Shown here piece after piece: positions 26,404-55,581 of a stretch of 64,000 nucleotides of DNA; position 1 is the first letter of the stretch, and each line of letters opens with the position of its first letter. Under the pieces are notes generated by a model. That model saw only the letters and a list, made by a program, of their open reading frames with translations, made no database searches and was not told the origin of the DNA. Location: positions 85,680 to 149,679 of the forward strand of contig JACPFQ010000001.1 of NCBI GenBank assembly GCA_016182875.1, written 5' to 3'. The translations under genes were made by a program, and so were the position numbers. The DNA is from Candidatus Doudnabacteria bacterium (GTDB taxonomy: Bacteria; Patescibacteriota; Doudnabacteria; UBA920; O2-02-FULL-48-8).

Positions 26404-26441
26404 AAATTATTTAATTAAATTCCAAGAATTCAGATTTTTAC

Positions 26442-27107: not shown

Positions 27108-27877
27108 AGTGGAATGGATGTAAATGACTGTCGAGAATTTCTTTCAAATTGCCTTAGTTCTTCTTCGCGGATAATCGAATAACGAGAATCATTAAGCCTC
27201 TCCAACGGACAGAAAAATAACCGCGCGGGTTTTTTGGGACTGCCTCCCACTCCGATTACCACAAAAACAGACATCCCCTGTTTTCTACCATATTCTCTAT
27301 AATTTTCTCCCTTCCTTTTGTCCCAGTCTATGCCGCCCTTAAAAAAATATGAGCGATACTTACACTCAACCGCCAATATCTTTCCTGTCCCAATATGCCG
27401 GAAGGTAAAATCAGGATTAGAGTCGGATTCCACTGTCCGTTTAAGAATCTTTGAAAAATCCCTGGTCTTATCAACAACAACCCAGATATCTCTTGGAAAA
27501 AGAGAGGCTACATGGCTTTCGAACTTATAACCTTTTCCGAAGGTGTCATAATAAAGCCAAAGGAAAACCCCGAACACAATCGCGACTACTAAATCTAACA
27601 CCTGCCAAATCTTAGCGTTATGCAGATAAATTGGGACAACCGGATTGAAGAGTATAACTGCTCCAATAAATCCCAGGATCCAGTAAATTTTTCTGCTCCG
27701 GTAAGCAATAAAACTAAGAACAATACCAGCCAAGCTAACAAGCCATCGCAATATGCCAAAGTCGCCTCGATACAAACCCGCCGCTGCGACTAGTAGTGTG
27801 ATGATAACTATCCAGATTAAAATACGCGTTATAACTTCCGGATTCATAAATTTATACCTTTTGCTTAAGTTTACCAC
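27104..27877 (-). CDS. Membrane-anchored NERD (nuclease-related domain) protein
   Basis: 3-4 N-terminal TM helices, then C-terminal 'GKGYKFESHVASLF...DFTFRHIGTGKILAVECKYRS...SVFVVIG', the NERD/PD-(D/E)xK pattern. Confidence 0.6.
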   Translation of the reverse strand: MVNLSKRYKFMNPEVITRILIWIVIITLLVAAAGLYRGDFGILRWLVSLAGIVLSFIAYRSRKIYWILGFIGAVILFNPVVPIYLHNAKIWQVLDLVVAIVFGVFLWLYYDTFGKGYKFESHVASLFPRDIWVVVDKTRDFSKILKRTVESDSNPDFTFRHIGTGKILAVECKYRSYFFKGGIDWDKRKGENYREYGRKQGMSVFVVIGVGGSPKKPARLFFCPLERLNDSRYSIIREEELRQFERNSRQSFTSIPL

Positions 27878-28035
27878 AAAACAAAAACTATCGTCATTTG
27901 ACGTCGTCTAATAATAATTAGTATTCAGGTTATTGACTAATTTACTTCCGAATAATAAAATTAAGGTATGGTGGAGGCGCGAGAGACACCAAAACCACGA
28001 AAGGTCGAAAATAATTAATTTAAAGGACCAATAAA

Positions 28036-28257
28036 ATGGCCAATCAGCATATTGTTTACCGAGGGCACAATGAATGGGCGGTTAGACGCGAAAAAGCTAG
28101 CCGAGATACAATCGTTGTAGACAATCAGCAAGAAGCTTTTGATATTGCAAGAGATATTGCTGAAAATCAAGGTGGCGAAGTGTTTATTCACGGCAGAGAC
28201 GGTAAAATCCGTGAACGGAATACTTACAAGGATGACCCCTATCCGCCAAAGGGTTAA
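28036..28257 (+). CDS. DUF2188-domain protein
   Basis: '...GGEVFIHGRDGKIRERNTYKDDPYPPKG' (DUF2188 C-terminal signature). Confidence 0.65.
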   Translation: MANQHIVYRGHNEWAVRREKASRDTIVVDNQQEAFDIARDIAENQGGEVFIHGRDGKIRERNTYKDDPYPPKG

Positions 28258-28288
28258 TTAATAACCTGAAAATGAAAACAAAAAATTA

Positions 28289-28317
28289 AAAACCGCCAGA
28301 ACTACTGGCGGTTTTTG
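28289..28317. terminator. Bidirectional terminator between the convergent DUF2188 genes
   Basis: AAAACCGCCAG-aacta-CTGGCGGTTTTT. Confidence 0.65.
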
Positions 28318-28323
28318 CTTTAT

Positions 28324-28620
28324 CTAATTTTTAGGTGGATATGGATCAGAAGAATAAAACCTGGTTTCAATAAGGCCATTTCTATTGTGAATAAAGATCT
28401 CTCCCCCATTTTGGCCAGTGTCTTCCCTAGCCTTTGATAAGGCTTCATCACGAGTACTATATCTTTTTTCTTCCCTAGCTCCAATTCTTTTTACTTTCCA
28501 TTCTCCATCTTTTGGAAAAATATGAACATTTCTCTGCCCACGCTTAATAGCCTCAGTATATGATCTTATCTGGGGATTATTCTTATTATTTCTTTTCAAT
28601 GGTATTTCTTTAGGTGCCAT
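28324..28620 (-). CDS. DUF2188-domain protein (paralog)
   Basis: '...NGGEIFIHNRNGLIETRFYSSDPYPPKN'. Confidence 0.65.
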   Translation of the reverse strand: MAPKEIPLKRNNKNNPQIRSYTEAIKRGQRNVHIFPKDGEWKVKRIGAREEKRYSTRDEALSKAREDTGQNGGEIFIHNRNGLIETRFYSSDPYPPKN

Positions 28621-28624
28621 ATGT

Positions 28625-29221
28625 CTATTCTGAAACCAATTTGATTATATCATCTTTAGTATATTGATTTTCTCTTAAATAGGCAAGCAAATCACCTCTA
28701 GTTTCAAATTTTAACTCGGTAAAACTCAAATCTTCCCCTAAATAAGCGTTCTTGATAAGTTTGATCTCTACGTGAGGATAGTTTTCTGCTATCCAAAGCA
28801 AGGTCTTCCTTGCTGAGGAATGTTTTTCATAAAAGTATCTGTCACTAAATTTTCTGTCCCGGTTAAGAAATGCAACGAAGGCTTGTTTGAAATCTTGGGG
28901 CCAAACGGCATGAATTTCTATCTTTTTCTTAGATTTACTAATTCTTCCTATTTTAATTCCTGCGCCTTTTTCGGTTGGAAGTATACCGTCTAGGACGATT
29001 AAATCTTGCTTATCTAAATATTCTGAAAAATATTCGGTTTTTCCAGATGCAGGTCCACCAGACAATAAAACGACCTTTTCAAATTTAGATGTTTTAATTG
29101 TCTCGTAAAGCTTTGCGTCGGCTAACTTAGCAGATTCACTATGAAATTCCTCAGATCGTTCTGGCGAGTATCCTGGTAAATCCTTTTTAATATCATCAGC
29201 AGAAATCAATATCGAAGTCAT
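28625..29221 (-). CDS. P-loop kinase, zeta-toxin/AAA_33-like
   Basis: Walker A 'LSGGPASGKTEYF', about 200 aa, nucleotide-kinase-like. The family assignment is tentative. Confidence 0.45.
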   Translation of the reverse strand: MTSILISADDIKKDLPGYSPERSEEFHSESAKLADAKLYETIKTSKFEKVVLLSGGPASGKTEYFSEYLDKQDLIVLDGILPTEKGAGIKIGRISKSKKKIEIHAVWPQDFKQAFVAFLNRDRKFSDRYFYEKHSSARKTLLWIAENYPHVEIKLIKNAYLGEDLSFTELKFETRGDLLAYLRENQYTKDDIIKLVSE

Positions 29222-29326
29222 TTATATAAATTTATTCATTTTCTTCAATTTCAAATCCTAGTTTGTTTTGCAGTTCTTTCGGTTGTAATAATAAGGTAAA
29301 ATAACCTAAAACTCCTTCAATCCGTA

Positions 29327-29644
29327 TTAATAAAATTCTCTATCAACATAAATTTCTGAAGAATAAATCTTACGTTCTGGGCCGCTCATTACTAATCGTG
29401 GCTTAATTTCTGATTGAGGTATTGTAAAGTCATGTAAATCTTCTCCAGATGCTACAGCTAGCTCTTTTATGCAATCATTAAACTCATTAGCATATTTCCC
29501 TTGTACATGAGATTTAGGCAAATTATTTTTTAACGCTGTCAATTTAGATAACGATCTGGCGAGTTGCTTATCCATAATTGAAGGATTCTTATATTTTAGA
29601 AAAACCAAAATCTTTTCCGACAGGTTTAAGTTCTTGATTATCAA
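29327..29644 (-). CDS. Hypothetical 105-aa protein, translationally coupled to the upstream EVE-nuclease gene
   Basis: ATGA overlap with the 29641-30693 gene. No recognisable domain. Confidence 0.4.
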   Translation of the reverse strand: MIIKNLNLSEKILVFLKYKNPSIMDKQLARSLSKLTALKNNLPKSHVQGKYANEFNDCIKELAVASGEDLHDFTIPQSEIKPRLVMSGPERKIYSSEIYVDREFY

Positions 29645-30693
29645 CAGTGTTCTAAATAATTAATAAAATCAATATATTTTTTATCGGTTGGTTCCCGTGA
29701 TGGGACTAAAATCCTGTATTGGTCCTCAAAAGTTATATTCTTTTCTTTTTTGAATTTATTGATCTCAAAATAATCATATTCATATAGTTGCACTATTCCT
29801 TTTCGTGCTTGGACTTTAAAATTTCTGTTTTCTGTACTTTTTACTTCAAAGAGAAATGAACGCTTACCGTCATGCGCAAACAAATCAACATACTCATTAG
29901 AAAGCGTAGCATATCCCTTCTTTCTAAATATGCTTATCAGTTGTTCAAGGACAGAATGATGAGATGCTTCTGCTCGAGCCAGAATATCATTATCTCGCTC
30001 GACTATAGAATAAGGTTTAATTATTAATCGCTTCTTGATTGATTCTAAAAATCTCAAGGAAGCTGCGTGTCTTAGAGTTTCAGTTGCATTATGAACTTCA
30101 ACTAAATCTGATGCCTTCTGTTCAATCGCGGGACCACGAGTTGAGTGTCCGGTATATAAATGTAATGGCCTATTTTGAAATAAAATTTGTTGAGCAACTT
30201 CGGGCCGTACCGTGGAAAAACTACCCATTTGTGGGAAACCCTTAATTTCTGAAATTGGGATTCGATTTCCAACCAGTTGACTAATCAGTGGAACCGTAGC
30301 AACATCATTGGCTGGTGTGGGTGATTCCCAATTTGCAGGATTAGGTAATTCGCCGAATAAATATATTTCAGTTAACGGAACTAATAATGGCCAACGGTTT
30401 ACATTGTTTTTTATTTCATAATGCCATAAATAGTTATTTTTTATCGAAAAATCAAAACCAACTACTCCAATTCCGATTATGCCGGATTTAGCTACGCCCG
30501 GGAAAGCTGAAGTATCTCCTGATGAACTATGAATAAAAAATATATCGCCTGTTTGCAATTTTTCCCAATCTTTTCTATTTTTGTCTTTAGCTTCAAGTCC
30601 CCAAGTAAAATATTTAATAGCGGTCAACCAGTGCTCAGGCGGACCAGTAAACTTAAAAAACTGTTTTTGATTTAGAGCCGAAGAAAGATCCAT
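29641..30693 (-). CDS. EVE (PUA-like) domain fused to a PD-(D/E)xK nuclease (DUF3883-like); putative modification-dependent restriction endonuclease
   Basis: N-terminus 'KQFFKFTGPPEHWLTAIKYFTWGLE...LQTGDIFFIHSSSG...GIIGIGVV' is EVE-like. C-terminus 'VDLFAHDGKRSFLFEVKSTENRNFKVQARKGIVQLYEY' carries D...E-x-K. Confidence 0.55.
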   Translation of the reverse strand: MDLSSALNQKQFFKFTGPPEHWLTAIKYFTWGLEAKDKNRKDWEKLQTGDIFFIHSSSGDTSAFPGVAKSGIIGIGVVGFDFSIKNNYLWHYEIKNNVNRWPLLVPLTEIYLFGELPNPANWESPTPANDVATVPLISQLVGNRIPISEIKGFPQMGSFSTVRPEVAQQILFQNRPLHLYTGHSTRGPAIEQKASDLVEVHNATETLRHAASLRFLESIKKRLIIKPYSIVERDNDILARAEASHHSVLEQLISIFRKKGYATLSNEYVDLFAHDGKRSFLFEVKSTENRNFKVQARKGIVQLYEYDYFEINKFKKEKNITFEDQYRILVPSREPTDKKYIDFINYLEHC

Positions 30694-31040
30694 TATAATT
30701 TATTGTACTTAGTATGTTTCCCTTTGGCTTTGTCTACTGGGTATTTCTTCTCGTTCTGTTCCATTTTTTTATGAAAAGCTTCAATTATATCAACACCAAT
30801 ATCATTACTGATAAGCAATACCCAATAAAGGACGTCGGACAATTCTTCAGCTACTTCTTCTTTATGATCTTTCACATACGCTTCCATTTCTTCTTTGTTT
30901 TTCCATTGAAAATGCTCAGCCACTTCCGCAGCTTCTAACATCAAGGACAAGGCTAAGTCTTTAGGATTATGAAACTGCTTCCACTCTCTATCATCTCTGT
31001 ATTTAATTATTCTGTCAGTTAAATCTTTTATATCCGACAT
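30693..31040 (-). CDS. MazG-like nucleoside-triphosphate pyrophosphohydrolase (all-alpha dUTPase/dCTPase-like)
   Basis: 'EWKQFHNPKDLALSLMLEAAEVAEHFQWK...ELSDVLYWVLLISNDIGVDI'. Its stop overlaps the start of the EVE gene. Confidence 0.7.
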   Translation of the reverse strand: MSDIKDLTDRIIKYRDDREWKQFHNPKDLALSLMLEAAEVAEHFQWKNKEEMEAYVKDHKEEVAEELSDVLYWVLLISNDIGVDIIEAFHKKMEQNEKKYPVDKAKGKHTKYNKL

Positions 31041-31221
31041 AAAAAATTATCCAAATTACTTGGCTTAATAATGCCACGAATTGCTTGGAAAATCAATCAA
31101 CATCTCAGACGGGTGTGGGGTGTTAGATTAAGGTTATAGGTTTTAGGTGATAGGTTATAGAAATCAAAAACGGGCCTTGAAGCCGCTTTAAATATATTAG
31201 CTTTCGCTTGGGTCAAATTTG

Positions 31222-31250
31222 TTGACGAGTTTATACTTAAAACCTAAAAT
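31222..31250 (+). promoter_or_regulatory. Near-consensus sigma70 promoter (TTGACG, 17-nt spacer, TAAAAT)
   Basis: -35 at 31222-31227, 17-nt spacer, -10 at 31245-31250. Confidence 0.45.
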
Positions 31251-31256
31251 CTTTGT

Positions 31257-31394
31257 ACCGTCAGATTTTGGGGAAAGCAGGACGAAAACCCTGCCAGAGA
31301 CACCTGGTCAAAACCTCCACTTGGGTTCGGAGGGGCTTCGAGGGCACCAGGCACCTGTTGAGGTGAGGACTCCTCCAATTCTGACGGCTTTTTC
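31257..31394 (+). ncRNA. Candidate small structured RNA (~135 nt) closed by a long-range stem ACCGUCAGA...UCUGACGGC plus UUUUUC
   Basis: Transcript predicted from the promoter above. Ends pair over 9-10 bp, and the internal hairpins GCAGG..CCUGC, ACCUGG..CCAGGU and CCUCC..GGAGG are followed by a T-run. Class not identified. Confidence 0.35.
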
Positions 31395-31442
31395 TTATGA
31401 AAAAAATCAGCTGGCAAGATTTGCTCCTGCCAGCCTTAACTC

Positions 31443-31692
31443 TCAGACCCGCCGGAAGTCTCGGCCTTCGGACGGTTGGTACAACCCAAGCTTGCGGTTG
31501 CTGCGGTTGGGGAAGACCGGGATGGTGCCTGCGATGAACCTGCCGAGGTCTGTAACCTCGCGGTCATAGCGTTTGGCCCGCACCCAATCTTCTCTCTTGA
31601 CGGCCCGGCCACGAAGTTTCTCGTAGCGCTTCTTGAGGAACTCGGCTGCCGCCAGTTCATTCATGTACTTGATTTGCTCCAACCCGTGCATA
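31443..31692 (-). CDS. Hypothetical 82-aa ORF downstream of the DUF62 gene
   Basis: Starts at MHGLEQ and overlaps the 3' end of the DUF62 gene by about 35 nt. Sits in the GC-rich island. Weak support. Confidence 0.3.
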
Positions 31693-32481
31693 CTCACCTC
31701 CTGCTTCATGAACGGCCAGTAAATCACCGACCTTAAGTCCCAATCTTGCCGCTGCCGACCCGCCCTTGACCACGATTTCGAGGAACCGCGTATTAGCAAG
31801 CCCCGAACTGCCGATGACCACGGCCAACTCGCCTTCCGGCACGTCACAGAGCCGCGGGTAAACCGGCAGATGTCCCAGATATTGCCGGTACCGCCGGTCA
31901 GACAAGCCAACCACATCCTCGGTCGTCAGCGTGGTCTTGAGATTACCAAAGCAATCAACATACCAGACGACCTCCTCTGTCCACGGCTCAATTTCTTGCG
32001 GCGGACCCCCGTGAAAACCGACTGACTCGAACTCCGCAACAAGCAAAGGCAGAAAATCAAAGCTGCGGAATTGCGAACTTTCGATCTGCAGCCGCTCGTG
32101 GTCGTCGATAACCTGGGCGTAAACCAGCTGCTGCAGCGTGCGCGCGACATCAATCGGGTAGCAGGAACGAATGCCGACCTTGGGCAGCAGTCCCAGGGTG
32201 TTGACCGTCGTTACAACGAACGGGCCATCTTTGCATTCCACCTGTACGAACGGCGGGCCATTGGTACCTGACGTCTGCTCGTTCCGAGGTGCGACATTGC
32301 ACAGAATCCAGCCCGGTGCGTTCCCAGCCGCATCCAGCGCGTCGATCAGGCAGCCGGCGGCTTCGTACTCGTTGACCACAGGCATGGTGGTCACCGGACA
32401 ATTAAGCCAAGCAGCTGCTCTAGTAGACAGCCTCCCCAAAGCATTGGCATCGGAGCAGTCGTTGATTATGGTCACAAACAT
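31657..32481 (-). CDS. DUF62 family protein (SAM hydroxide adenosyltransferase / SAM-dependent halogenase (fluorinase/chlorinase) family)
   Basis: N-terminus 'MFVTIINDCSDANALGRL...', 'NVAPRNEQTSG', C-terminal 'LEIVVKGGSAAARLGLKVGDLLAV'. Perfect SD AAGGAGG. Coding GC is about 62%. Confidence 0.6.
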   Translation of the reverse strand: MFVTIINDCSDANALGRLSTRAAAWLNCPVTTMPVVNEYEAAGCLIDALDAAGNAPGWILCNVAPRNEQTSGTNGPPFVQVECKDGPFVVTTVNTLGLLPKVGIRSCYPIDVARTLQQLVYAQVIDDHERLQIESSQFRSFDFLPLLVAEFESVGFHGGPPQEIEPWTEEVVWYVDCFGNLKTTLTTEDVVGLSDRRYRQYLGHLPVYPRLCDVPEGELAVVIGSSGLANTRFLEIVVKGGSAAARLGLKVGDLLAVHEAGGEYARVGANQVHE

Positions 32482-32544
32482 CTTTGGCCTCCTTAGTGAT
32501 TCCGACGCTGCGGTCGGAATGATTTTACTTCGTAAAATCAAAAA

Positions 32545-32700
32545 GCCTCTTTCTTCATGAAAGAGGCTTGCCTAAGTACTTTTGGTGTCAAACCCGTCTA
32601 ACGGGTTAAATGCCCAAACAGGCCTCTTCCATGGAAAGAAGCCATCATCATAGCGCCCGAGCAGGTTCGATATAGGAATTTCATTAAGATTATCTTAAGC
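32545..32700 (-). promoter_or_regulatory. Riboswitch-like 5' leader of the DUF62 gene, with mutually exclusive terminator and antiterminator hairpins
   Basis: Minus-strand RNA has hairpin GGCUUCUUUCC-AUG-GAAGAGGCC, hairpin ACCCGU-UAG-ACGGGU, then terminator AAGCCUCUUUC-AUGAA-GAAAGAGGCUU plus UUUUGAUUUU 40 nt before the SD. The 3' half of the first hairpin can pair with the 5' half of the terminator. A GAUGAUGG k-turn-like element is present. Ligand class unassigned. Confidence 0.4.
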
Positions 32701-32724
32701 TTGAGTAAATAAAAAGTCAAATAA

Positions 32725-32758
32725 AAACCGGAGCGGACCGCGGGGTCTGCTCCGTTGG
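32725..32758 (-). terminator. Rho-independent terminator of gene 32801-33127
   Basis: On the minus strand: GGAGCAGACCC-cgc-GGTCCGCTCC followed by GGTTTTTATTT. Confidence 0.6.
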
Positions 32759-32800
32759 AATGCACAAACGGCCTGGGCGGCCGGCGATGGAATCAGGGAA

Positions 32801-33127
32801 TCACTGGTCGCCTGGAATACCAGTCCCCCTCGTGCTGGCAAAGAACACCGGAACCGCAACGCTTGCTGCCAGCATAACGACGCAGGTAGCAAACAGCCAG
32901 AACACTTCCTTGTAGAAGCTTGCGGCTCCAATGAGCGCGTATGTGGTCCGCGTCGCCCAGTGAGGCTTGCCCACAAGGAAGACGCAGAGGTAGAACACGA
33001 CATCGCGCAGCCCGTTGACCGGGCCGGTGTTGATCCTGGGTCTCGGAGTCGGCGGCAGAGACGCGTAGTCCTCGCCGCTATAGTGCCCGGTCTCACCGCG
33101 CATAAGAGCCTCCTTCCCATTGGACAT
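32801..33127 (-). CDS. Hypothetical small membrane protein (108 aa), in the GC-rich island
   Basis: Two TM helices, GC about 62%. A longer alternative ORF 32695-33165 overlaps. No homology recognised. Confidence 0.4.
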   Translation of the reverse strand: MSNGKEALMRGETGHYSGEDYASLPPTPRPRINTGPVNGLRDVVFYLCVFLVGKPHWATRTTYALIGAASFYKEVFWLFATCVVMLAASVAVPVFFASTRGTGIPGDQ

Positions 33128-33143
33128 GTGGCATATAGTTTAG

Positions 33144-33176
33144 CAAAAACCGCCACTTTGTTCAATGGCGGTTTTT
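33144..33176. terminator. Hairpin AAAAACCGCCA-ttgaacaaagt-TGGCGGTTTTTT at the island boundary
   Basis: 7-bp stem with A and T runs on both sides. Confidence 0.55.
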
Positions 33177-40447: not shown

Positions 40448-40503
40448 ACCCTGAACTTGTTTCAGGGTCTCGTCCTGAGATGCTGAATTAAATTCAGCAT
40501 TAC
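40448..40503. repeat. Double-hairpin repeat containing TGAGATGCTGAAT-taa-ATTCAGCATT (family also at 59080-59134)
   Basis: Hairpin CCCTGAAC..GTTTCAGGG, then the conserved GAGATGCTGAAT/ATTCAGCAT palindrome, then the (A/G)CG..TTTATTA tail. Confidence 0.55.
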
Positions 40504-40601
40504 GTATTTATTAAGCCCTTGAATTATATCAGTTGCTAAAAGCATTGACAAAAGCTCCAAAAAAGAGTGTAATTATATATCACTAACCAAGGAGGTATCC
40601 G

Positions 40602-40802
40602 ATGATGAGCGCGAAGATTGCCCACGTGATTTTCACTAGGCTCAACGCCTACGCCGCCCGGCACGACTTGACCCTGCCCGAGCTTCCGAACGTGGTCAGG
40701 GACCTGGCCGACGGCGTCGAGGAAGTCATCGCAGAGGAGGCGCAAGCCCGGCCCGCCGGCGACGCGGCAATGGGACTGGCCTCGGACGAACACCGAGGCT
40801 GA
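40602..40802 (+). CDS. Hypothetical 66-aa protein, the first ORF of the GC-rich cassette-like island
   Basis: SD AAGGAGG 7 nt upstream. GC about 62%. Confidence 0.45.
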   Translation: MMSAKIAHVIFTRLNAYAARHDLTLPELPNVVRDLADGVEEVIAEEAQARPAGDAAMGLASDEHRG

Positions 40803-40824
40803 TGGACACTGGCCCGACACAAAT

Positions 40825-40869
40825 ACGCGAGGAGTGCAGGAAACAGACACCCTAATGCACTCCCCGCGT
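40825..40869 (+). terminator. Island hairpin type H, copy 1: ACGCGAGGAGTGCA...TGCACTCCCCGCGT
   Basis: 13-bp imperfect stem followed by TTCTAATTTTTCC. Homologous hairpins at 42428-42468 and 43545-43608. Confidence 0.55.
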
Positions 40870-40893
40870 TCTAATTTTTCCGCATTAGCAAAA

Positions 40894-40969
40894 ATCTAAC
40901 CATTTCGAGCGCGAAGCGCGAGAAATCGCTCTTATGAGGGATCTCTCCCGTTGGTCGAGATGGTTACAT
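40894..40969. repeat. attC-like imperfect inverted repeat ATCTAACCATTTCGAG...TCGAGATGGTTACAT
   Basis: Outer 7-mers ATCTAAC (= RYYYAAC) and GTTACAT (one mismatch to GTTRRRY), with inner 9-bp inverted repeats. Preceded by the shared motif TTTTTCCGCATTAGCAAA, also found at 42780-42797. Confidence 0.3.
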
Positions 40970-40997
40970 TCTTGGTGCTGCGAAAACTTGTTAGGAG

Positions 40998-41926
40998 GAA
41001 ACAACATGACCCTCAACCCTTATCTCATTACCAGCATGCGAGGAAAGAGAGATGGGATTGCGGGTCATTCAGAAAGAAGACTCGCAATTGTTTTGCCAAG
41101 CGGTCTGTTTGCCGGCTACCTTGGCGGTGCCGCATGTTGGGCGCTGCACAAGCTGGGCTTCGCAAATGTACCGACTACCATCGTGGGTTTTTCGGCGGGA
41201 GCGCTCACCGGCGCTTTCTGGGTTTCGGGTCAGCTTAATGACCACGTCATGAACCTGGCCCTGACCTACCACGACCGCAATCGCGACGTGGTCCGGCCCT
41301 GGCGGATCGGCAAGATCTTTGACGTTGACCGAGTCATCGACTCGATCGCCCAGGATTTCGATCTTGCCACTTTCATGGCTTCCCCGATCAACTTGTTGGT
41401 CGGGGTTGCGACAGAGGGTGGACACGGCGAACTCCTTGATGTCAAAACGGCCAAACCCGGCCCATTCGATGCGCTTAAGGCAGCGATCGCTATGCCCTGG
41501 CCCATGTTCAATCGCCACATCGAGGTCAACGGCCACCTCTATGGCGACCAGATCTTCGATCCTCTGCCGATTGAAGACATCATCAAGGCGACCAATCCCA
41601 CGGACGTCTTGATAATTGCTAATCAACCAAAGCGACCGATCGACGAATGGCGATTGAGCGGTGCCGATCTGGCGCTGGCAGCCCTGCGTCTCACCGCTCC
41701 CGAGGTGGCGATGAAAATGCTCGGGCGCAAAGCCAGACTTCGCAAAGCACTGCGTTTCTGCGAAGAGTGTCCCGACATCAACATCGGCGTCCTCTATCCG
41801 CCAAGTTCATCGCGCGGACTGACTAGAGATGCCGAATCACTTCGCCACGCCATCATCGAAACTGCCAAGGCGACAGCCGAGGCATTCGGTGAACAACTCA
41901 ACATCTCGCAAGTAGTGAGGGGATGA
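40998..41926 (+). CDS. Patatin-like phospholipase
   Basis: Oxyanion-like 'LPSGLFAGYLGG', nucleophile elbow 'GFSAGA' (G-x-S-x-G), SD AGGAGG. The ORF track start at 40934 lies inside the inverted repeat; the ATG at 40998 is preferred. Confidence 0.6.
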
Positions 41927-42414
41927 TAATGACCGACATGCTGTACCCAAGGCTCATCTTCGCGATTCACTTCACGCTTGCGGATTACGCTGCATGGCAA
42001 AAAATCACCCTGTCGGATATGACTAAGCTCGTGGAGCGTCTGGCAAGTACTCTCGAGCAGAGCTACAACGGGGCGACCAAGAAGCCTCCGAAGAACGCCA
42101 AAGCCACGATCAAACGTGTGCTCGTAGAATACACTTTGAGAGACACCTGCCGCGCCCAGACTCGAAGGCGAGCGAGGATGGGTGCAGGTCGGCGCAAGCG
42201 TGCGTTGACTGGCGGGGCAAGCAGAATCAACCTGCCGGAAATGACTACGCTTGTAGAAAGTCTTACAGGCGCTGTCGACAAGGTCTACGCACTGGAGGCA
42301 GGGACACACAGCAAAGTCGAACGGCCCGCTGCTCGAGAGGCCAAAAGTCTAAGTGGCCTCAGTGCTGCTGACATTCTCGCACACCTTGACTTTGTGCACA
42401 CGTACTTCGACTGA
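41923..42414 (+). CDS. Hypothetical 163-aa protein, coupled to the patatin gene by an ATGA overlap
   Basis: GC-rich ORF with no recognisable domain. Confidence 0.45.
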   Translation: MIMTDMLYPRLIFAIHFTLADYAAWQKITLSDMTKLVERLASTLEQSYNGATKKPPKNAKATIKRVLVEYTLRDTCRAQTRRRARMGAGRRKRALTGGASRINLPEMTTLVESLTGAVDKVYALEAGTHSKVERPAAREAKSLSGLSAADILAHLDFVHTYFD

Positions 42415-42427
42415 GCTGGGTCTTCAG

Positions 42428-42468
42428 GCGCGCGGAGTGGAAGGCTTACACAGCTTCCCTCCCCGCGT
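42428..42468 (+). repeat. Island hairpin type H, copy 2: GCGCGCGGAGTGGAAGGCT..AGCTTCCCTCCCCGCGT
   Basis: Same arm sequences as copy 1. Followed directly by SD AAAGGAGGA. Confidence 0.5.
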
Positions 42469-42493
42469 CCCAAAGCCAAAGGAGGAACCCTAA

Positions 42494-42757
42494 GTGAGCA
42501 CGATTGCAGAGGTCGTCGACTTTGTACTTCAGGCGCAGGCACGGATGAATACGGCCAAATGCGATTCGGCGTTCCGGCTCGAGTTTCATCGACGGCTAGG
42601 AGCGCTCGTCGATGATGTTCGGCGGGTCTACCACCTCAACACCCAGCCGCTGCTTAAGATGGATCGGACAAGGCAACTGCCTGACTCGTCGCAGGTCATC
42701 TTTGATCAACTCAAACAGCAGCTCGCAACCGTCCCAAACAACCCCCGTACTGAGTGA
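42494..42757 (+). CDS. Hypothetical 87-aa protein (GTG start)
   Basis: SD AAGGAGGA 7 nt upstream of GTG. Confidence 0.4.
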   Translation: MSTIAEVVDFVLQAQARMNTAKCDSAFRLEFHRRLGALVDDVRRVYHLNTQPLLKMDRTRQLPDSSQVIFDQLKQQLATVPNNPRTE

Positions 42758-42870
42758 AAGCGTCAGTACGGGGACCCGTTTTTCAGCATTAGCAAATGGT
42801 CACTGATCCCGCCTTCGCCAAGGCTTCGGCGGGCAGGCACGGATTACGGATCACAGATCACTTGGTACTG
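42743..42870. repeat. Hairpin CCCCGTACTGA..TCAGTACGGGG, motif TTTTTCAGCATTAGCAAA, and a second attC-like structured inverted repeat
   Basis: Parallels the 40825-40969 architecture: hairpin, then GCATTAGCAAA motif, then inverted repeat TGGTCACTGATCC...GGATCACAGATCAC with an inner CCCGCC..GGCGGG hairpin. Confidence 0.35.
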
Positions 42871-42923
42871 CGGAGCGAAAACCGCAACCTTTCCGCCCAC
42901 CCAGGGCGATGTTTGGAGGATCA

Positions 42924-43274
42924 ATGGAATCGTTCATGGTTACTCAGACGGCTCTGGCTGGCGTCAGTTTTATCGTCGCTGCGTTCTATCCCTACCGCTC
43001 AGGGCCCGCTTACGCGATGCTGTGGCTCACAGGCTTCGTCGCGGTCCTCGGAGTACTACTTGCCGTGGGCGTTTACTTCGATGCCCATGTTTTCTACCCC
43101 GAAGCGCTGAATGACGGCCCGCTCGGCGTGGGTATGTTCGTCGACCTGCCGGACGCGGTAGAATGGCAGATTCTGAGGGACCTGGCACTCAGCCTCAGCT
43201 TCTACTTGGCGCCTGTCACCACATTCGGGCTCGGCCGCCTGGCCCGCCGCCGCATCGGCCGTCTGACAAGCTAA
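42924..43274 (+). CDS. Hypothetical membrane protein (about 117 aa, 3 TM)
   Basis: SD GGAGGATCA-ATG. Confidence 0.4.
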   Translation: MESFMVTQTALAGVSFIVAAFYPYRSGPAYAMLWLTGFVAVLGVLLAVGVYFDAHVFYPEALNDGPLGVGMFVDLPDAVEWQILRDLALSLSFYLAPVTTFGLGRLARRRIGRLTS

Positions 43275-43301
43275 CGCAATTCAAAACGCGAGGAGTCATT
43301 C

Positions 43302-43535
43302 ATGATTTGCGACGTGACCGAAGCGGTGCAGATACTCCGCCGACTGGCGGAGAAGCTGGAAAGGGGGGACGGATTTTCGGACGATGACGGGGTCGAGCTT
43401 GGCCGGGCGAGCGAGGCAGGCACGTGCAGAAGCCCCGGCAGAACGCCGCCCAAAGACTTCGTGGGAGCGTTCAACCACGGATATTACCGCTCTCGAGATA
43501 GGCGCAACGGCCGTACGCCCGGTCCAGCCGACTGA
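43302..43535 (+). CDS. Hypothetical 77-aa protein
   Basis: SD within the half-copy of hairpin H (AAAACGCGAGGAGTCATTC-ATG). Confidence 0.4.
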   Translation: MICDVTEAVQILRRLAEKLERGDGFSDDDGVELGRASEAGTCRSPGRTPPKDFVGAFNHGYYRSRDRRNGRTPGPAD

Positions 43536-43544
43536 GAAAGCCGC

Positions 43545-43608
43545 ACGATCTAAAACGCGCGGAGTGCAGCGGACTTGAAACCCAAGCCCCGAAGCACTCC
43601 CCGCGTAT
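43545..43608 (+). terminator. Island hairpin type H, copy 3, with a T8 tract: a strong rho-independent terminator closing the island
   Basis: ACGCGCGGAGTGC...GCACTCCCCGCGT-ATTTTTTTT. Confidence 0.7.
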
Positions 43609-43632
43609 TTTTTTTATATCCTTAAGACAGGT

Positions 43633-43674
43633 CATTAGTTAACAATTTATGCGATAGCAGATTTTGTTAACAGC
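43633..43674. repeat. 42-bp direct repeat (copy 1) at the 3' boundary of gene 43674-44267, with internal inverted repeat GTTAACAA..TTGTTAAC
   Basis: CATTAGTTAACAATTTATGCGATAGCAGATTTTGTTAACAGC, about 85% identical to 44240-44281. Confidence 0.6.
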
Positions 43675-44267
43675 TAAAGACCAAACTGTTTAATCAGGTC
43701 CTTCTGGATATCGATGCTTTTGACAAGCATTATTCGAACAAATGGACGAACTTCATAAAGCTCGCTGATAAAATCAATTTCGTCTTCGCATGCATATGGG
43801 TAAACCCACACACTCTTCTGCAAGCGATAAAATCCCAGCTCTCTTAATTTTGCCCGCATAGATTCTCTCCCTTGCTTGTACTTCTCCGGAATATCAAAGA
43901 TCACAGCCCGCCACAGCTTATCCCACTTTGCAGGCTTTTTGATATGCAATTCTTCAAGTTTATATTTTAAAAACTTGTTCTGACCGTTTTTTGTCAACCG
44001 GACCACAGTCTTGCCGTCTTCCTTGGAGATACCAATAAGCTTCCTCTGTTCCAAATTTCTTAAAGAGAGGTAAACCTTACGTCGATGCCACTTCGGAATG
44101 TTTAATTCTTCAGCAATAGCCATTAAGATCAATGGACCAGCAACTGGAATTGCTATAACTCCAGCCGCTGCAATACAACCCAAAATAACCTTGGCAATTT
44201 CAGATCTTTTGCTTTTATTTTCGCTTAAATCATTCATACCGTTAGTTAACAACTTAGGCGATAGCAT
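43674..44267 (-). CDS. PaaX-like protein: N-terminal TM segment, wHTH, and a Cas2/PaaX_C-like C-terminal domain
   Basis: 'LSLRNLEQRKLIGISKEDGKTVVRLTKNGQ' (wHTH) and 'WRAVIFDIPEKYKQGRESMRAKLRELGFYRLQKSVWVYPY' (Cas2/PaaX_C fold pattern). AT-rich, unlike the adjacent island. Confidence 0.5.
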   Translation of the reverse strand: MLSPKLLTNGMNDLSENKSKRSEIAKVILGCIAAAGVIAIPVAGPLILMAIAEELNIPKWHRRKVYLSLRNLEQRKLIGISKEDGKTVVRLTKNGQNKFLKYKLEELHIKKPAKWDKLWRAVIFDIPEKYKQGRESMRAKLRELGFYRLQKSVWVYPYACEDEIDFISELYEVRPFVRIMLVKSIDIQKDLIKQFGL

Positions 44268-44281
44268 AAGTTGTTAACATC
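44240..44281. repeat. 42-bp direct repeat (copy 2) containing the start codon of gene 43674-44267
   Basis: CGTTAGTTAACAACTTAGGCGATAGCATAAGTTGTTAACATC encodes MLSPKLLTN on the minus strand. Confidence 0.6.
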
Positions 44282-53387: not shown

Positions 53388-53925
53388 TAATTTTAAGATT
53401 AGTGATGAATTCTAATAATTCTGAAACATGTATGAAAGACTTAAATGTCCAGGATTCATCTTTGCTTGCATCTAATTTTTTAAGTAGTTCCAAAGCAACC
53501 CATTTTACCTCGTCCATTTCTTCTTTTTCAAAGCTTAGGCTGTCGACGTCTCCGTCCCAAAAAAATATATAAACATAAATGAACTCTTTGTTTTTATCTT
53601 CATAATAGTGCTTAACCACTTTCCATAGCTTTAAGTCCGGCTCCTCGGCTCTAAGGCCCAATTCTTCGTGCAATTCCATAATCGCTCCTTGGACTGGACT
53701 AATTCCCACAAGAATATGCCCGCCAAAAAAGGCTTCCCACAGGCCGGGGTTATGATCTTTCGAAACCGACCGCTTATTGCACAAGACCTCGTTTTTAGAA
53801 TTCAAGACCCAAACATGGGCGTTGCGATGCCAGACGCCTTCGCTGTGGGCGCGATGCCGCTCCACCGGCTCAATCGGCTGGTTATTTTCATCAACCGCAA
53901 ACAGCAATTCGTTCTTATTTATCAT
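53380..53925 (-). CDS. NUDIX hydrolase (IDI/Nudix-like)
   Basis: Nudix-box-like 'GGHILVGISPVQGAIMELHEELGL'. Confidence 0.6.
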   Translation of the reverse strand: MINKNELLFAVDENNQPIEPVERHRAHSEGVWHRNAHVWVLNSKNEVLCNKRSVSKDHNPGLWEAFFGGHILVGISPVQGAIMELHEELGLRAEEPDLKLWKVVKHYYEDKNKEFIYVYIFFWDGDVDSLSFEKEEMDEVKWVALELLKKLDASKDESWTFKSFIHVSELLEFITNLKINA

Positions 53926-55581
53926 GCTTTCTTAAGTCAATAATTTTTAATTCCAAGCTTTTGCTGCCGTTCCAGGAATTTTCTTCCAGTTCATAGACCG
54001 CATCTATTTTCGTTCCGGGTGGCAGCTTCTCAGACAAAAAACCCTGGCCAAAGGCAATGGCGCCAAAAAATTTATTTCCCATCTTGAGTCTTAGTTTAAG
54101 GTGCTTGTTGCCGTTGCCTACACTCCGCGCTTCCGTGATTTCCATACCGTAGGAAACAAATTTTGGCTTGGGATTCCCCACGCCAAATGGAGCGATGCGC
54201 TGGATATATTCAAAATTATCGAAATTTATATCAGACTCATTAAGCTCCAAATCGACCTCAAGCACAGGCGGCTCAAACTCCATGCTTAGCGTCTCAACAT
54301 AGTCCAAAAGCTTCTGATGAAAGCTCGAAAGATGCTCTGAGGGCAAGGTAAAGCCTGCCGCTTGCATATGCCCTCCATACCGAACCAGTAGTTCCTTGCT
54401 TGAGTTAAGGGCCGCGACCAGGTCAAAATTGCCCACTGACCGGCCAGAACCGGTGGCCAACAGCTCTTCTTTGCGCAAAATCAGGACCGGACGGCCGTAT
54501 TCTTCGGCGAGTCGGCCCGCAACAAGTCCGACCACGCCTTTGGGCCAGTCAGCGCCATACGCCAGCAGAACCTTTTTATCAGAGGCCAGTTCGAGTTGAG
54601 ACCGGGCTTCGCTCAAAACCTGCTCCGTCAACTTTTGGCGGTGCTGGTTTAAATCATTAAGCTCCAAAGCCAAATTTTTGGCTTCAGCTTCATCCTCGGT
54701 AACCAAAAGCTTGAAAGCCAAATCCGCGTGTTTGATTCGGCCGGCGGCATTGATGCGGGGAGCCAAAATAAATCCCAAGGCGTAAGTATCGAGGGCTTTG
54801 CCCTCAAGGCCGGCCAGGGTCATCAATTTTTTCAGGCCAAGCCAGCGCGTCTTGGCCAAAACCTTAAGGCCGAAGCTTACCAAGATTCTGTTTTCACCTA
54901 CGAGATTTTGGCAATCAGCAACTGTGCCAATGGCTAGTAAATCCAAACGCCATTTCTCCCAGCCATTTGGAAATTGGAAATTAGATTAAAGGCCACTCCC
55001 ACTCCAGTCAAAAACGGAAACGAGTAATTGTCATGCGGATTTTTGGGATTGATGACCGCAAGCGCCTCTGGAAGCTCTCCAGTCACCTCGTGATGGTCAG
55101 TCACGATCACGTCCATCCCAAGCTCTTTTGCCAAAGCGACTTCTTCCACGGCATTAGTGCCGCAGTCAACGGTAATCACAAGCTGTCCGCCTCTTTCAGC
55201 GATTAGTTTGATTGCGTCAGCGTTAACGCCGTAGCCTTCGGAAAACCGGTCAGGAATGTAGTAATCAACCACTGCCCCCAGCTTCTTAAGAGCCAAATAA
55301 ACCACTGCCGCGGCAGTGATGGCGTCCGCGTCATAATCCGCGTAAATAAAAATTTTTTCTTTCCGCTCTAAGGCCTGCAAAATCCGCTCAACTGCCATCA
55401 GCATGTCGGCAAACAAAAAAGGATCGTGCAGTTTGCCGAAGTCCGGATTTAAAAAATCGCGTATCGCTTCGGGCTCAGTAAACCCCCGCAACGCTAAAAG
55501 CCTGATAACCAACGGAGGGTATTCCGGCAAAACTTCGGGATTTTTTATTTCCAGGGTTTTAACCCGCCACTGTTTGGACAT
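53915..55581 (-). pseudogene. recJ: Single-stranded-DNA exonuclease RecJ, split by a frameshift into a DHH ORF (54934-55581) and a DHHA1-OB ORF (53915-54946)
   Basis: N-part 'IYADYDADAITAAAV', 'VITVDCG', 'VIVTDHH'. C-part 'LDLLAIGTVADCQNL', 'GGHMQAAGF'. Frames overlap at a (GGAAATT)2 heptamer repeat at 54969-54982, next to a T3/A3 run. Confidence 0.85.

What the first reader, a model, noticed from the sequence alone, without database searches (positions are those of the whole stretch)
40590..43610. GC-rich cassette-like array of SD-led small ORFs (including a patatin-like lipase) separated by related hairpins and attC-like inverted repeats
About 3 kb at ~60% GC sits in a ~46% GC genome. It holds six same-strand ORFs, each with a strong AGGAGG SD that the host genes lack. 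The ORFs are separated by a hairpin family with conserved arms ACGCG(A/C)GGAGTG...CACTCCCCGCGT (40825, 42428, 43545, half-copy at 43284), a shared motif TTTTTC(C/A)GCATTAGCAAA (40876, 42780), and imperfect inverted repeats whose outer 7-mers resemble integron attC cores (ATCTAAC ... GTTACAT at 40894-40969). The array inserts between proS and rseP. It looks like an integron-type or other site-specific-recombination cassette array, and patatin-like lipases are known defense or effector cargo. No integrase lies in the window.
Basis: partly seen in the sequence, partly recalled or inferred. Interest (0 to 1): 0.75.

Follow-up and report, generated by a model that had tools for sequence, protein, structure and literature searches.

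The report
Variable accessory-gene slot upstream of proS
A 3-kb GC-rich run of six small genes in an ultra-small (CPR, Doudnabacteria) bacterium is this species' own filling of a gene slot beside proS whose promoter and terminator recur in related species, and its repeated hairpins are copies of that terminator rather than integron recombination sites.

Summary
The described features are real. Window 40600-43615 is 57-60% GC against about 46%. It holds six plus-strand ORFs, all with Shine-Dalgarno (SD) sites (6/6, against 3/68 host ORFs), a private three-copy hairpin family plus a half copy, and an 18-nt repeat. Both junctions are identical in 11 independent assemblies.

The integron reading fails. 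The block has no R''/R' core pairs and the hairpins have no extrahelical bases. No recombinase was found in the window. Terminators separate the units, and nothing is shuffled.

About 80 relatives keep the rseP-proS-mreB order, and none encodes O1-O6. Three other Doudnabacteria carry, at the same site and orientation, an unrelated GC-elevated insert ending in a GGAG...CTCC hairpin terminator. Two of these inserts are SD-led ORFs. L007 and L022 share the promoter-like sequence upstream of O1, and L007 has nearly the same hairpin arms.

My best reading is a lineage-conserved promoter-to-terminator slot with swappable cargo. Here it has grown to six ORFs, partly by internal duplication (O1 resembles both halves of O3).

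O2 is a divergent patatin-fold lipase of a subfamily found in CPR-type genomes. It keeps Ser63 and Asp181 but has a degenerate oxyanion motif. The other five ORFs match no family.

Verdict: an ordinary kind of variable islet with some CPR-specific detail; moderate-to-low interest.

The parts
40545..40573 (+). Promoter-like sequence TTGACA-N17-TGTAAT upstream of O1. It overlaps back-to-back with the proS promoter-like site on the minus strand (40551-40523).
   Evidence: The minus-strand site was found by the scan. The plus-strand site was read from the sequence and aligns with L007 and L022 at the same locus. It does not pass the scan's -10 criteria, and function is inferred.
40602..40802 (+). 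O1, 66 aa, led by AAGGAGG (40589-40595). It is a paralogue of both halves of O3.
   Evidence: (z 6.3-6.7 against O3N and O3C). No family match. Singleton cluster HYV13_00775.
40825..40879 (+). Hairpin 1 (arms 40825-40836 and 40858-40869, with an A.C mismatch at arm position 6) plus TCTAATTTTT. Terminator-like.
   Evidence: -23 kcal/mol, z -3.5; 72 bits.
40875..40892 (+). Copy 1 of the 18-mer TTTTTCCGCATTAGCAAA. Its T-run doubles as the tail of hairpin 1.
   Evidence: 2 exact copies, 0.43 expected at up to 3 mismatches.
40894..40969 (+).
   Evidence: -39 kcal/mol, z -3.5; fails the attC core test; assembly contigs break at its core.
41006..41926 (+). O2, 306 aa, divergent patatin-fold serine hydrolase. 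It has the GFSAG nucleophile motif (Ser63) and Asp181. The Gly-rich oxyanion motif is degenerate (PSGLFAG where the family has GGGMRG).
   Evidence: 515 relatives, best 33% identity; pLDDT 84; PlpD, CapV, CapE, patatin; TM about 0.6.
41929..42414 (+). O3, 161 aa, basic (net charge +10), made of two copies of the O1-like motif. It starts 2 nt after the O2 stop, so is probably co-transcribed.
   Evidence: (no homologue other than itself).
42428..42468 (+). Hairpin 2 (C.C mismatch at arm position 6, inner GAAGG/CTTCC stem). It has no T-run, so is probably an intra-operon stem-loop.
   Evidence: z -4.8 as DNA; 54 bits.
42494..42757 (+). O4, 87 aa, GTG start led by AAGGAGG. It appears not to be annotated in the GenBank record.
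   Evidence: The locus tags skip from O3 (HYV13_00785) to O5 (HYV13_00790).
42733..42783 (+). Terminator-like hairpin CCCCGTACTGA...TCAGTACGGGG plus TTTTT, spanning the O4 stop codon.
   Evidence: Read from the sequence. The T-run is the start of 18-mer copy 2.
42779..42796 (+). Copy 2 of the 18-mer (TTTTTCAGCATTAGCAAA).
42796..42862 (+). Large hairpin B in the leader of O5. Its core CCCGCCTTCGCCAAGGCTTCGGCGGGCAGGC is a widely dispersed short hairpin.
   Evidence: second copy at window 24750-24781; four unrelated viral contigs; contigs break here.
42924..43274 (+). O5, 116 aa, small membrane protein (hydrophobic segments at about 3-22 and 27-58), led by GGAGG.
43283..43297 (+). Half copy of the hairpin's left arm (AAAACGCGAGGAGTC). 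Its GAGGAG serves as the SD of O6.
   Evidence: (family D3, 93%).
43302..43535 (+). O6, 77 aa, no relatives detected.
43555..43615 (+). Hairpin 3 (arms 43555-43566 and 43595-43606) flanked by AAAA and T8. It is a bidirectional intrinsic-terminator-like element between the block and the convergent PaaX-like gene, and the positional counterpart of the L007 hairpin.
   Evidence: -29.8 kcal/mol, z -4.75; 63 bits.

Best explanation
The block is the species-specific content of a variable accessory-gene slot that sits upstream of, and divergent from, proS in a subset of Doudnabacteria.

The slot's frame belongs to the lineage. It consists of a promoter-like TTGACAAAAG...TGTAAT sequence placed back-to-back with the proS promoter, and a strong GC stem-loop ending in a T-run with arms ACGCG.GGAGT / ACTCCCCGCGT. 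That stem-loop terminates both the slot transcript and the convergent PaaX-like gene. An AAGGAGG ribosome-binding site follows the promoter in the window and in L007.

The coding cargo between promoter and terminator differs completely between species. It is GC-elevated and, where an ORF is clear, SD-led, in genomes whose own genes almost never use SD. This points to acquisition from a GC-richer, SD-using gene pool. The most likely route (inferred) is homologous recombination through the conserved flanks.

In this genome the slot has grown to six ORFs in about three transcription units: O1 | O2-O3-(O4) | O5-O6. Part of that growth was internal duplication. O1 and the two halves of O3 are paralogues, the terminator hairpin is present three and a half times, and the 18-nt block and SD context of the leaders of O2 and O5 are duplicated. 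Two generic palindromic hairpins sit in the two leaders.

The only assignable gene, O2, is a divergent patatin-fold lipase of a subfamily found in CPR-type genomes. Its most likely role (inferred) is membrane-lipid or host-lipid processing rather than a cyclic-nucleotide-triggered defence effector.

Shown: composition, SD contrast, repeats, synteny, absence from relatives, the conserved frame, paralogy, and the patatin family and fold. Inferred: promoter and terminator activity, the route of acquisition, and biological role.
For: - Both junctions are real. Eleven Logan contigs from at least 8 sequencing runs are 100% identical to the window.
- Synteny g46074-frr-rseP-proS-mreB is conserved across about 80 Patescibacteria. 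The rseP-proS gap is 6-150 bp in many of them, and none encodes O1-O6.
- Three other Doudnabacteria have an unrelated GC-elevated insert at the same site and in the same orientation. L007 has a 104-aa ORF (53% GC against 33-42% in the flanks) led by AAGGAGG. L077 has a 205-aa membrane ORF (57% GC against 43% for the locus) led by GGAGGA. L022 has about 230 nt at 57% GC with no clear SD or start. Each ends in a GGAG...CTCC hairpin followed by T's.
- The promoter-like sequence aligns among the window, L007 and L022.
- A covariance model of the three hairpins finds only those three in the window. In 1.43 Mb from 85 related loci it finds only L007 9328-9379 (E about 0.002) and L022 9675-9726 (E about 0.09), and both lie in the syntenic gap. 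The L007 right arm ACTCCCCGCGT is identical to the window's.
- The cargo ORFs are mutually unrelated; no pair reaches z above 3.
- SD use is 6/6 in the block against 3/68 in host ORFs. About half of Parcubacteria lack the 16S anti-SD motif (PMC9297842).
- Internal paralogy: O1, O3N and O3C score z 6.1-6.7 against each other.
- O2: 515 HMMER relatives, all ten relatives scanned are Pfam Patatin members found in CPR-type contexts, and the model has the patatin fold.
Against: - The conserved frame rests on only two or three other genomes. The covariance-model E-values are modest, and its calibration is rough.
- L077's promoter aligns poorly.
- The closest relative by proS (L006) and another Doudnabacteria (L083) have no slot at all, so the slot is itself patchy.
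- No donor was identified. Five of the six ORFs have no detected relative, so 'acquired' rests on composition and SD use rather than phylogeny.
- O2's subfamily is found in CPR-type genomes, which fits intra-CPR exchange but also fits old residence.
- There are no expression data, so the promoter, terminators and unit boundaries are all predictions.
- A second islet in the window (31.25-33.15 kb) has the same SD and GC signature but different terminators. The signature is therefore not unique to this slot.
Confidence: 0.6

Rival explanations
1. Integron-type cassette array. The ORFs are promoterless cassettes captured by an IntI integrase at attC hairpins, and the integrase lies outside the window.
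For: Small same-strand ORFs are separated by imperfect hairpins with conserved arms and variable loops. One element has a perfect R''-like end, ATCTAAC. A fixed promoter-like sequence lies upstream.
Against: - There are no strict RYYYAAC...GTTRRRY pairs in the block on either strand.
- The hairpin family has ACGCG/CGCGT ends with no AAC/GTT. It is 41-52 nt long, shorter than typical attC sites (own knowledge). It has a symmetric mismatch or a G-T pair instead of extrahelical bases.
- Three hairpins carry T-runs and look like terminators.
- No recombinase was found in 64 kb.
- Eleven assemblies show no rearrangement.
- The hairpin recurs as a single terminator in L007.
Confidence: 0.03
2. A single horizontal transfer of a contiguous 3-kb fragment from a GC-richer, SD-using donor (bacterium, plasmid or phage). 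On this reading the hairpins are the donor's own terminators or REP-like repeats, and the host contributes nothing but the insertion site.
For: Uniform GC elevation and SD use across all six ORFs. Absent from relatives. The hairpin family is private to the block within the window.
Against: - The hairpin arms and the upstream promoter-like sequence are shared with other Doudnabacteria at the same locus, so they are not donor-specific.
- Internal duplication (O1/O3, the leaders) shows growth in place.
- There is no DNA match to phage or plasmid records, and no protein match for O3 or O5 in phages.
- The hairpin pattern is absent from viral contigs, and the two metagenome hits are chance palindromes.
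- There is no integrase, no tRNA and no flanking direct repeats.
Confidence: 0.17
3. Native, fast-evolving lineage-specific genes. The slot has always held a gene, inherited vertically and diverged beyond recognition. High GC and strong SD would reflect special expression requirements, not foreign origin.
For: The promoter-like sequence and the terminator are conserved at the locus. O2's subfamily occurs in CPR-type genomes. The population is clonal, with no sign of mobility.
Against: - The cargo differs in number, length and type: 104 aa soluble, 205 aa membrane, about 230 nt, and six ORFs, with no residual similarity.
- Close relatives have no gap at all (L006 34 bp, L083 8 bp).
- A second islet with the same GC and SD signature carries an ordinary DUF62/SAM_HAT-domain enzyme. 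This fits a shared foreign pool better than locus-specific selection.
Confidence: 0.12
4. An anti-phage or conflict islet. O2 would be a membrane-degrading abortive-infection effector like the CBASS patatins CapV and CapE, and the small ORFs would be sensors, immunity proteins or regulators.
For: The O2 model matches CapV and CapE as well as it matches PlpD. A small membrane protein and small orphan ORFs lie next to it. The location is variable and next to a Cas2-like-domain gene. One relative (L099) sits in a recombinase-associated, inverted-repeat-bounded unit.
Against: - There is no CD-NTase or other known sensor, and no credible PADLOC match for any block ORF (only a marginal E = 0.02 hit of O4 to RT_IV).
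- Other relatives lie among housekeeping genes.
- O2 lacks the Gly-rich/Arg oxyanion motif that most relatives keep.
Confidence: 0.1

Closest known systems
Horizontal-transfer hotspots: variable genomic islets between conserved core genes
   Same: Core flanks (rseP and proS) stay syntenic across the phylum while the content between them differs from species to species. The cargo is compositionally atypical, mostly without known family, and has no mobility gene of its own.
   Different: The islet is very small. The frame that is kept includes a dedicated divergent promoter-like sequence and a sequence-conserved terminator hairpin. The cargo is marked by SD sites in a genome that otherwise almost lacks them.
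Integron gene-cassette arrays (IntI, attI, attC)
   Same: A fixed upstream promoter-like element is followed by same-strand small ORFs separated by imperfect hairpins that have conserved arms and variable loops.
   Different: There is no intI or attI, no R''/R' cores, no extrahelical bases, T-run terminators between units, and no shuffling.
Rho-independent (intrinsic) and bidirectional terminators
   Same: Hairpins 1 and 3 and the O4 hairpin are GC-rich stems followed by T-runs directly after stop codons. Hairpin 3 has A's upstream and T's downstream and lies between convergent genes.
   Different: Terminators usually conserve structure rather than sequence. Here a 12-nt arm sequence with a fixed internal mismatch is kept in three copies and across species. 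The loops (17-28 nt) are longer than the simple scan allows.
REP/BIME-type repetitive extragenic palindromes
   Same: Imperfect palindromes with a conserved mismatch, placed after genes within and between operons.
   Different: The family is not dispersed. Only the three local copies exist in 64 kb, and none lies outside the syntenic gap in 1.43 Mb of related loci. There is no RAYT transposase. Large hairpin B does behave like a short dispersed palindrome.
Bacterial patatin-like phospholipases (PlpD, RssA/YchK type; CBASS CapV and CapE)
   Same: O2 has the patatin fold, the GXSXG nucleophile motif, the catalytic Asp, and the typical length of about 300 aa.
   Different: Sequence identity to any relative is at most 33%. 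O2 scores below Pfam's cut-off by itself. The oxyanion motif GGGxR/KG is replaced by PSGLFAG. There is no autotransporter domain and no CBASS partner.

Membership tests
Integron | IntI tyrosine recombinase adjacent to the array | tested here: not met
   No Phage_integrase, resolvase or transposase was found among the block ORFs or 30 other window ORFs scanned with Pfam, and none by eye in the first 30 kb. A few short ORFs were not scanned. The rest of the 151-kb contig and of the MAG could not be examined.
Integron | attC sites with R'' (RYYYAAC) and R' (GTTRRRY) cores 50-150 nt apart, one after each cassette | tested here: not met
There are 0 strict pairs in the block on either strand. No core pair in the window has at least 14/20 arm complementarity. 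IntegronFinder's attC covariance model was not available, and the Rfam scans returned no attC-type match.
Integron | Extrahelical bases on the folded bottom strand | tested here: not met
   The bottom strands fold into continuous stems with a G-T pair (hairpin 1) or a symmetric 1x1 mismatch (hairpins 2 and 3), with no bulged bases.
Integron | Cassette mobility: shuffling, presence/absence, empty site | tested here: not met
   Eleven contigs from independent runs are 100% identical and collinear. This is a single population, so the test is limited.
Patatin-like phospholipase (PF01734) | Score above Pfam's gathering threshold | tested here: not met
   O2 alone scores 20.7 bits against the 27.7 cut-off. 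All ten relatives scanned pass, at 28-69 bits.
Patatin-like phospholipase (PF01734) | Homology to family members over the full length | tested here: met
   515 hits at E <= 1e-3 and 155 at <= 1e-10. The best non-self hit has E = 1.7e-33 at 33% identity over residues 8-296.
Patatin-like phospholipase (PF01734) | Ser-Asp catalytic dyad (GXSXG and DG/DX motifs) | tested here: met
   GFSAG with invariant Ser63 and Gly65; Asp181 is invariant in alignment A4.
Patatin-like phospholipase (PF01734) | Glycine-rich oxyanion-hole motif GGGxR/KG | tested here: not met
   O2 has PSGLFAG where most relatives have GGGMRG. Only Gly33 is kept. Activity is therefore uncertain.
Patatin-like phospholipase (PF01734) | Patatin alpha/beta fold | tested here: met
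   The AlphaFold2 model built on a 15-sequence alignment has pLDDT 84 and pTM 0.87. The top PDB matches are PlpD 5fya (E 1e-9, TM 0.62-0.73), CapV, CapE and patatin.
CBASS (patatin effector type) | CD-NTase cyclase gene next to the effector | tested here: not met
   No block ORF has a credible Pfam or PADLOC match (O4's marginal RT_IV hit has E = 0.02), and no cyclase was found.
Intrinsic terminator | GC-rich stem-loop followed by a U-run just downstream of a stop codon | tested here: met
   Hairpin 1 is followed by TCTAATTTTT, the O4 hairpin by ACCCGTTTTT, and hairpin 3 by AT8. Folding z-scores are -3.5 to -4.75. Hairpin 2 has no U-run. Activity was not measured.
REP-like dispersed palindromes | Many dispersed copies per genome | tested here: not met
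   The covariance model finds only the three local copies in 64 kb. The rest of the genome was not available.
Prophage or integrative element | Integrase, att repeats, tRNA target, phage-family genes | tested here: not met
   No tRNA in the window. No PHROG match for any block ORF. No phage or plasmid similarity. No flanking direct repeats.

The most novel reading that the evidence does not exclude
The sequence-conserved hairpin (ACGCG.GGAGT / ACTCCCCGCGT, with a fixed internal mismatch) might be more than a terminator. It could be the recombination or capture site of an integrase-independent, or trans-acting, cassette system in Doudnabacteria. On this reading, modules of leader, SD, ORF and hairpin are added to or swapped at a fixed promoter beside proS. 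That would explain why each module in the window ends in, or begins with, a copy or half copy of the same hairpin, and why different species hold unrelated SD-led cargo in the same frame.
Probability: 0.08. Interest if true: 0.75.

Novelty: new member of a known kind. Interest (0 to 1): 0.35.

Why it matters
CPR/Patescibacteria genomes are small and highly syntenic, so places where they take up and keep new genes are informative about how these host-dependent cells adapt. This locus shows three things:
- It is a concrete, reproducible variable slot between two core genes.
- SD sites together with raised GC work as a simple marker of non-native genes in a lineage that largely does without SD. 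A second islet in the same window carries the same marker.
- A patatin-fold lipase subfamily occurs in CPR-type genomes. These organisms are thought unable to make their own membrane lipids and are enriched in lysolipids (bioRxiv 10.1101/465690), so the subfamily is a candidate for host-lipid processing.

The case is also a caution. Arrays of hairpin-separated small ORFs can look like integron cassettes by eye while being terminator-punctuated islets.

Tried and rejected
- Rfam at gathering and permissive thresholds: nothing credible.
- PHROGs and PADLOC on all block ORFs: no credible match.
- Word-indexed homology search for O2 and O3: each found only itself. For O2 this was an artefact of the word index, because the exhaustive HMMER search found 515 relatives.
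- Single-sequence AlphaFold model of O2: unusable, pLDDT 34.
- Sequence search of the PDB with O2: no hit.
- Hairpin pattern in viral contigs: 0 hits. In metagenome contigs: 2 hits, both perfect-palindrome terminators in roughly 70% GC genomes with no other similarity, judged to be chance.
- The 18-mer in viral contigs: 18 hits, about the number I estimate for chance.
- blastn of the whole block against phage and plasmid records, and tblastn of O3 and O5 against phages: no match.
- My recollection that the two large hairpins are CPR-wide repeats was not borne out in the 80 related loci. Only the core of hairpin B proved to be dispersed.
- Similarity between L007's 5'UTR and the window's O2 and O5 leaders (TGCTGCGGA..AAAA): not significant, with 3 matches against 1.1 expected.
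- Similarity between the O5 and L077 membrane proteins: none.
- Chimeric assembly: rejected.

Full report
**Source and setting.** The window comes from a Candidatus Doudnabacteria (CPR/Patescibacteria) MAG. The block ORFs are HYV13_00775-00795 on a 151-kb contig. The surrounding genes are ordinary core genes: pbp2, mreD, mreC, mreB, proS on one side and a PaaX/Cas2-like-domain gene, rseP, frr, a BNR-repeat protein and holB on the other.

**The observation.** The GC-rich block is real. It runs from about 40600 to 43615 at 55-62% GC in 300-nt windows, against a window mean of about 46-47%.
- Block ORFs are 56-66% GC (GC3 62-82%).
- Host genes are 40-56% GC; mreB is 56% with GC3 69%.

Six plus-strand ORFs are present and have coding-like codon-position GC.

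The SD claim holds up well. All six ORFs have AGGAGG, GGAGG or GAGG 5-9 nt before the start. Only 3 of 68 other ORFs of at least 100 aa have a strong SD at the first start, or 10 of 68 if any start in the first 60 codons is allowed. The hypergeometric p-values are about 5e-7 and 4e-5. This fits published work that about half of Parcubacteria lack the 16S anti-SD motif (PMC9297842).

The hairpin-arm motif gives 8 matches against 0.4 expected, and 6 of them are in the block. Each of the three full hairpins folds better than its shuffles. The 18-mer TTTTTCMGCATTAGCAAA occurs exactly twice.

**Not an assembly artefact.** Contigs from independent SRA runs span proS-O1-O4 and O5-O6-paaX-rseP. All eleven are 100% identical to the window. 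They break exactly at the cores of the two large hairpins, which suggests those cores are repeated or palindromic k-mers in the community.

**Test of the integron reading.**
- A direct scan for RYYYAAC...GTTRRRY pairs 50-150 nt apart found none in the block on either strand. No pair in the window has complementary arms.
- The small hairpin family has ACGCG/CGCGT ends. When the bottom strand is folded as DNA it shows a G-T pair or a symmetric 1x1 mismatch, not extrahelical bases.
- Hairpin 1, the hairpin over the O4 stop codon, and hairpin 3 are each followed by a T-run. They look like intrinsic terminators, which would defeat expression of downstream cassettes from one promoter.
- No integrase, resolvase or transposase was found in the window. 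No tRNA is present.
- Rfam, PHROGs and PADLOC give nothing credible.
- The core of large hairpin B also occurs at window 24750-24781 in ordinary intergenic DNA, and exactly in four unrelated 60-65% GC viral contigs with no flanking similarity. It is a generic short palindrome, not a cassette site.

**Comparative evidence.** A proS-anchored scan recovered 80 Patescibacteria loci. Synteny g46074-frr-rseP-proS-mreB is widely conserved, and none of these loci encodes O1-O6. The rseP-proS gap is 6-150 bp in many relatives, including the closest one (L006, 34 bp). Among Doudnabacteria it is variable, at 8, 621, 867, 1136 and 1908 bp.

Three other Doudnabacteria have a GC-elevated insert at the same site, divergent from proS:

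| Locus | Cargo | GC | Lead | End |
|---|---|---|---|---|
| L007 | 104-aa ORF, GTG start | 53% vs 33-42% flanks | promoter-like ATTGACAAAAG..., then AAGGAGG | AAAAACGCGGAGGGT...ACTCCCCGCGTTTTC |
| L077 | 205-aa membrane ORF | 57% (gap 52%) vs 43% locus | GGAGGA | GGAGCGG...CCGCTCC plus T7 |
| L022 | about 230 nt, no clear SD or start | 57% | none seen | GGGGAGCG...CGCTCCCC plus T-run |

- The promoter-like sequence aligns among the window, L007 and L022.
- A covariance model of the three window hairpins finds only those three in the window; the next best hit scores 15 bits.
- In 1.43 Mb from 85 related loci the model hits only L007 9328-9379 (E about 0.002) and L022 9675-9726 (E about 0.09). 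Both are in the syntenic gap.
- The cargo ORFs of the four genomes show no detectable similarity to one another and have no Pfam family.

The promoter-like sequence and the terminator hairpin therefore belong to the locus in this lineage, and the coding content between them is what varies.

**Internal structure of the window's version.**
- O1 and the two halves of O3 share a repeated motif of about 25-40 residues (z 6.1-6.7; 0-1 of 300 shuffles reach the score).
- O1 and O3 are each followed by a family hairpin.
- The leaders of O2 and O5 share the 18-mer, a CTTGGTRCTGCG...GAAAAC block, and the TGTTWGGAGGA context. Each has a different large hairpin inserted between the first two.
- A half copy of the hairpin's left arm supplies O6's SD.

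I read this as growth in place by duplication plus addition of modules, giving about three units: O1 | O2-O3-hairpin 2-O4 | O5-O6.

**The genes.** O2 looked like an orphan in the word-indexed search. The exhaustive HMMER search then found 515 relatives, the best at 33% identity over the full length.
- All ten relatives scanned are bona fide Pfam Patatin proteins. The three I located lie in contexts with genes typical of CPR genomes (DUF5657/5659/5674, pheS, gyrB, PBPs), and one is labelled Patescibacteria.
- O2 keeps GFSAG (Ser63) and Asp181. It has PSGLFAG where the family has GGGMRG.
- A model built on a 15-sequence alignment is confident (pLDDT 84, pTM 0.87). It matches PlpD, CapV, CapE and plant patatin, and patatin-like proteins of viruses.
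- There is no CBASS cyclase or other known defence partner.
- O5 is a small membrane protein and O3 is strongly basic. O1 and O3-O6 match no family, and O3 and O5 match no phage record.

CPR bacteria are thought unable to synthesise membrane lipids and are enriched in lysolipids (bioRxiv 10.1101/465690). A lipid-processing role for this patatin subfamily is therefore plausible, but it is inference.

**A second islet.** Window 31.25-33.15 kb (minus strand, 55-63% GC) has three AAGGAGG- or AGGAGG-led ORFs, one of them a DUF62/SAM_HAT-domain enzyme, with their own GC-stem and T-run terminators. The combination of raised GC and SD therefore marks a class of genes in this genome and is not unique to the proS slot. 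This supports a shared foreign gene pool.

**Conclusion.** The descriptive finding is largely correct, and the integron/attC mechanism is not supported. The best-supported account is a lineage-conserved promoter-to-terminator slot upstream of proS with species-specific, probably acquired, cargo. In this genome the slot has expanded to six ORFs, including a divergent patatin-fold lipase. The hairpins are copies of the slot's terminator.

This is a known kind of thing (a variable islet at a core-gene junction) with CPR-specific features. The one unusual point is the sequence-level conservation of the hairpin arms across copies and species. That leaves a small chance that the hairpin also acts as a recombination site.

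Noticed in passing
window 31250-33150 (minus strand): A second GC-rich (55-63%), SD-led islet. It holds a 100-aa membrane ORF (32801-33103), a DUF62/SAM_HAT-domain ORF (31657 to about 32481) and an 82-aa ORF (31443-31691). Each is led by AAGGAGG or AGGAGG, and the units are closed by their own GC-stem and T-run terminators.
   Followed up: partly
window 31255-31395 (minus strand): A GC-rich stretch of about 140 nt with no ORF, closed by GCCGTCAGA...TCTGACGGT, just downstream of the second islet's terminator. It may be a structured RNA. There is no Rfam match.
   Followed up: no
window 43635-43672 and 44242-44279: The PaaX/Cas2-like gene is bracketed by two direct copies (32 of 38 identical) of a palindromic site, TTAGTTAACAA-N18-TTGTTAACA. 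One lies just after its stop codon and the other overlaps its start codon. Four of the five GTTAACAA octamers in the window are in these two sites. They could be an operator pair or an att-like duplication.
   Followed up: partly
L099 5676-7184 (ENA ERZ1292623, Patescibacteria contig): The O2 relative P0153 is bracketed by a 137-nt inverted repeat (93% complementary). It lies between tRNA-Met and tRNA-Asp, directly after a large serine recombinase. It is GC-elevated (50% against 39%) and led by GGGAGG. Sister-sample contigs begin about 590 nt upstream of the gene, near the left repeat arm. It may be an invertible or mobile patatin unit.
   Followed up: partly
window 42808-42838 and 24750-24781; L124-L127: The 31-nt hairpin core CCCGCCTTCGCCAAGGCTTCGGCGGGCAGGC occurs twice in the window (the second copy has 2 mismatches). 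It also occurs exactly in four unrelated 60-65% GC IMG/VR contigs with no flanking similarity. It is a short palindrome that is unexpectedly widely dispersed.
   Followed up: partly
window 40449-40500 and 59085-59135: The double hairpin just upstream of proS (CCCTGAAC..GTTCAGGG followed by GATGCTGAAT..ATTCAGCATT) recurs in diverged form between the iPGM and enolase genes. It appears to be another dispersed intergenic hairpin pair of this genome.
   Followed up: no
window 24000-31100: A low-GC (32-43%) patch of small accessory genes. By eye it includes two DUF1905-like paralogues, ArsR-type regulators, a DUF2188-like ORF and a P-loop/zeta-toxin-like ORF. Pfam confirms a DUF6804 protein and a MazG-like protein. 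This is a compositionally opposite kind of variable region in the same window.
   Followed up: no
window 42494-42757: O4 (87 aa, GTG start, AAGGAGG SD) seems to be unannotated in the GenBank record. The locus tags run from HYV13_00785 (O3) directly to HYV13_00790 (O5), whereas the Logan gene calls include it.
   Followed up: no
window 53915-55581 (minus strand): recJ appears split into two overlapping ORFs: DHH (54934-55581) and DHHA1 plus RecJ_OB (53915-54946). This could be a frameshift, an assembly error or a genuinely split gene.
   Followed up: no
L006 (DATJFX010000040.1): The closest proS relative (75% identity) is labelled Candidatus Methylomirabilota, yet it has the Patescibacteria-type frr-rseP-proS-mreB synteny with mreB 84% identical. 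The contig is probably mis-binned.
   Followed up: no
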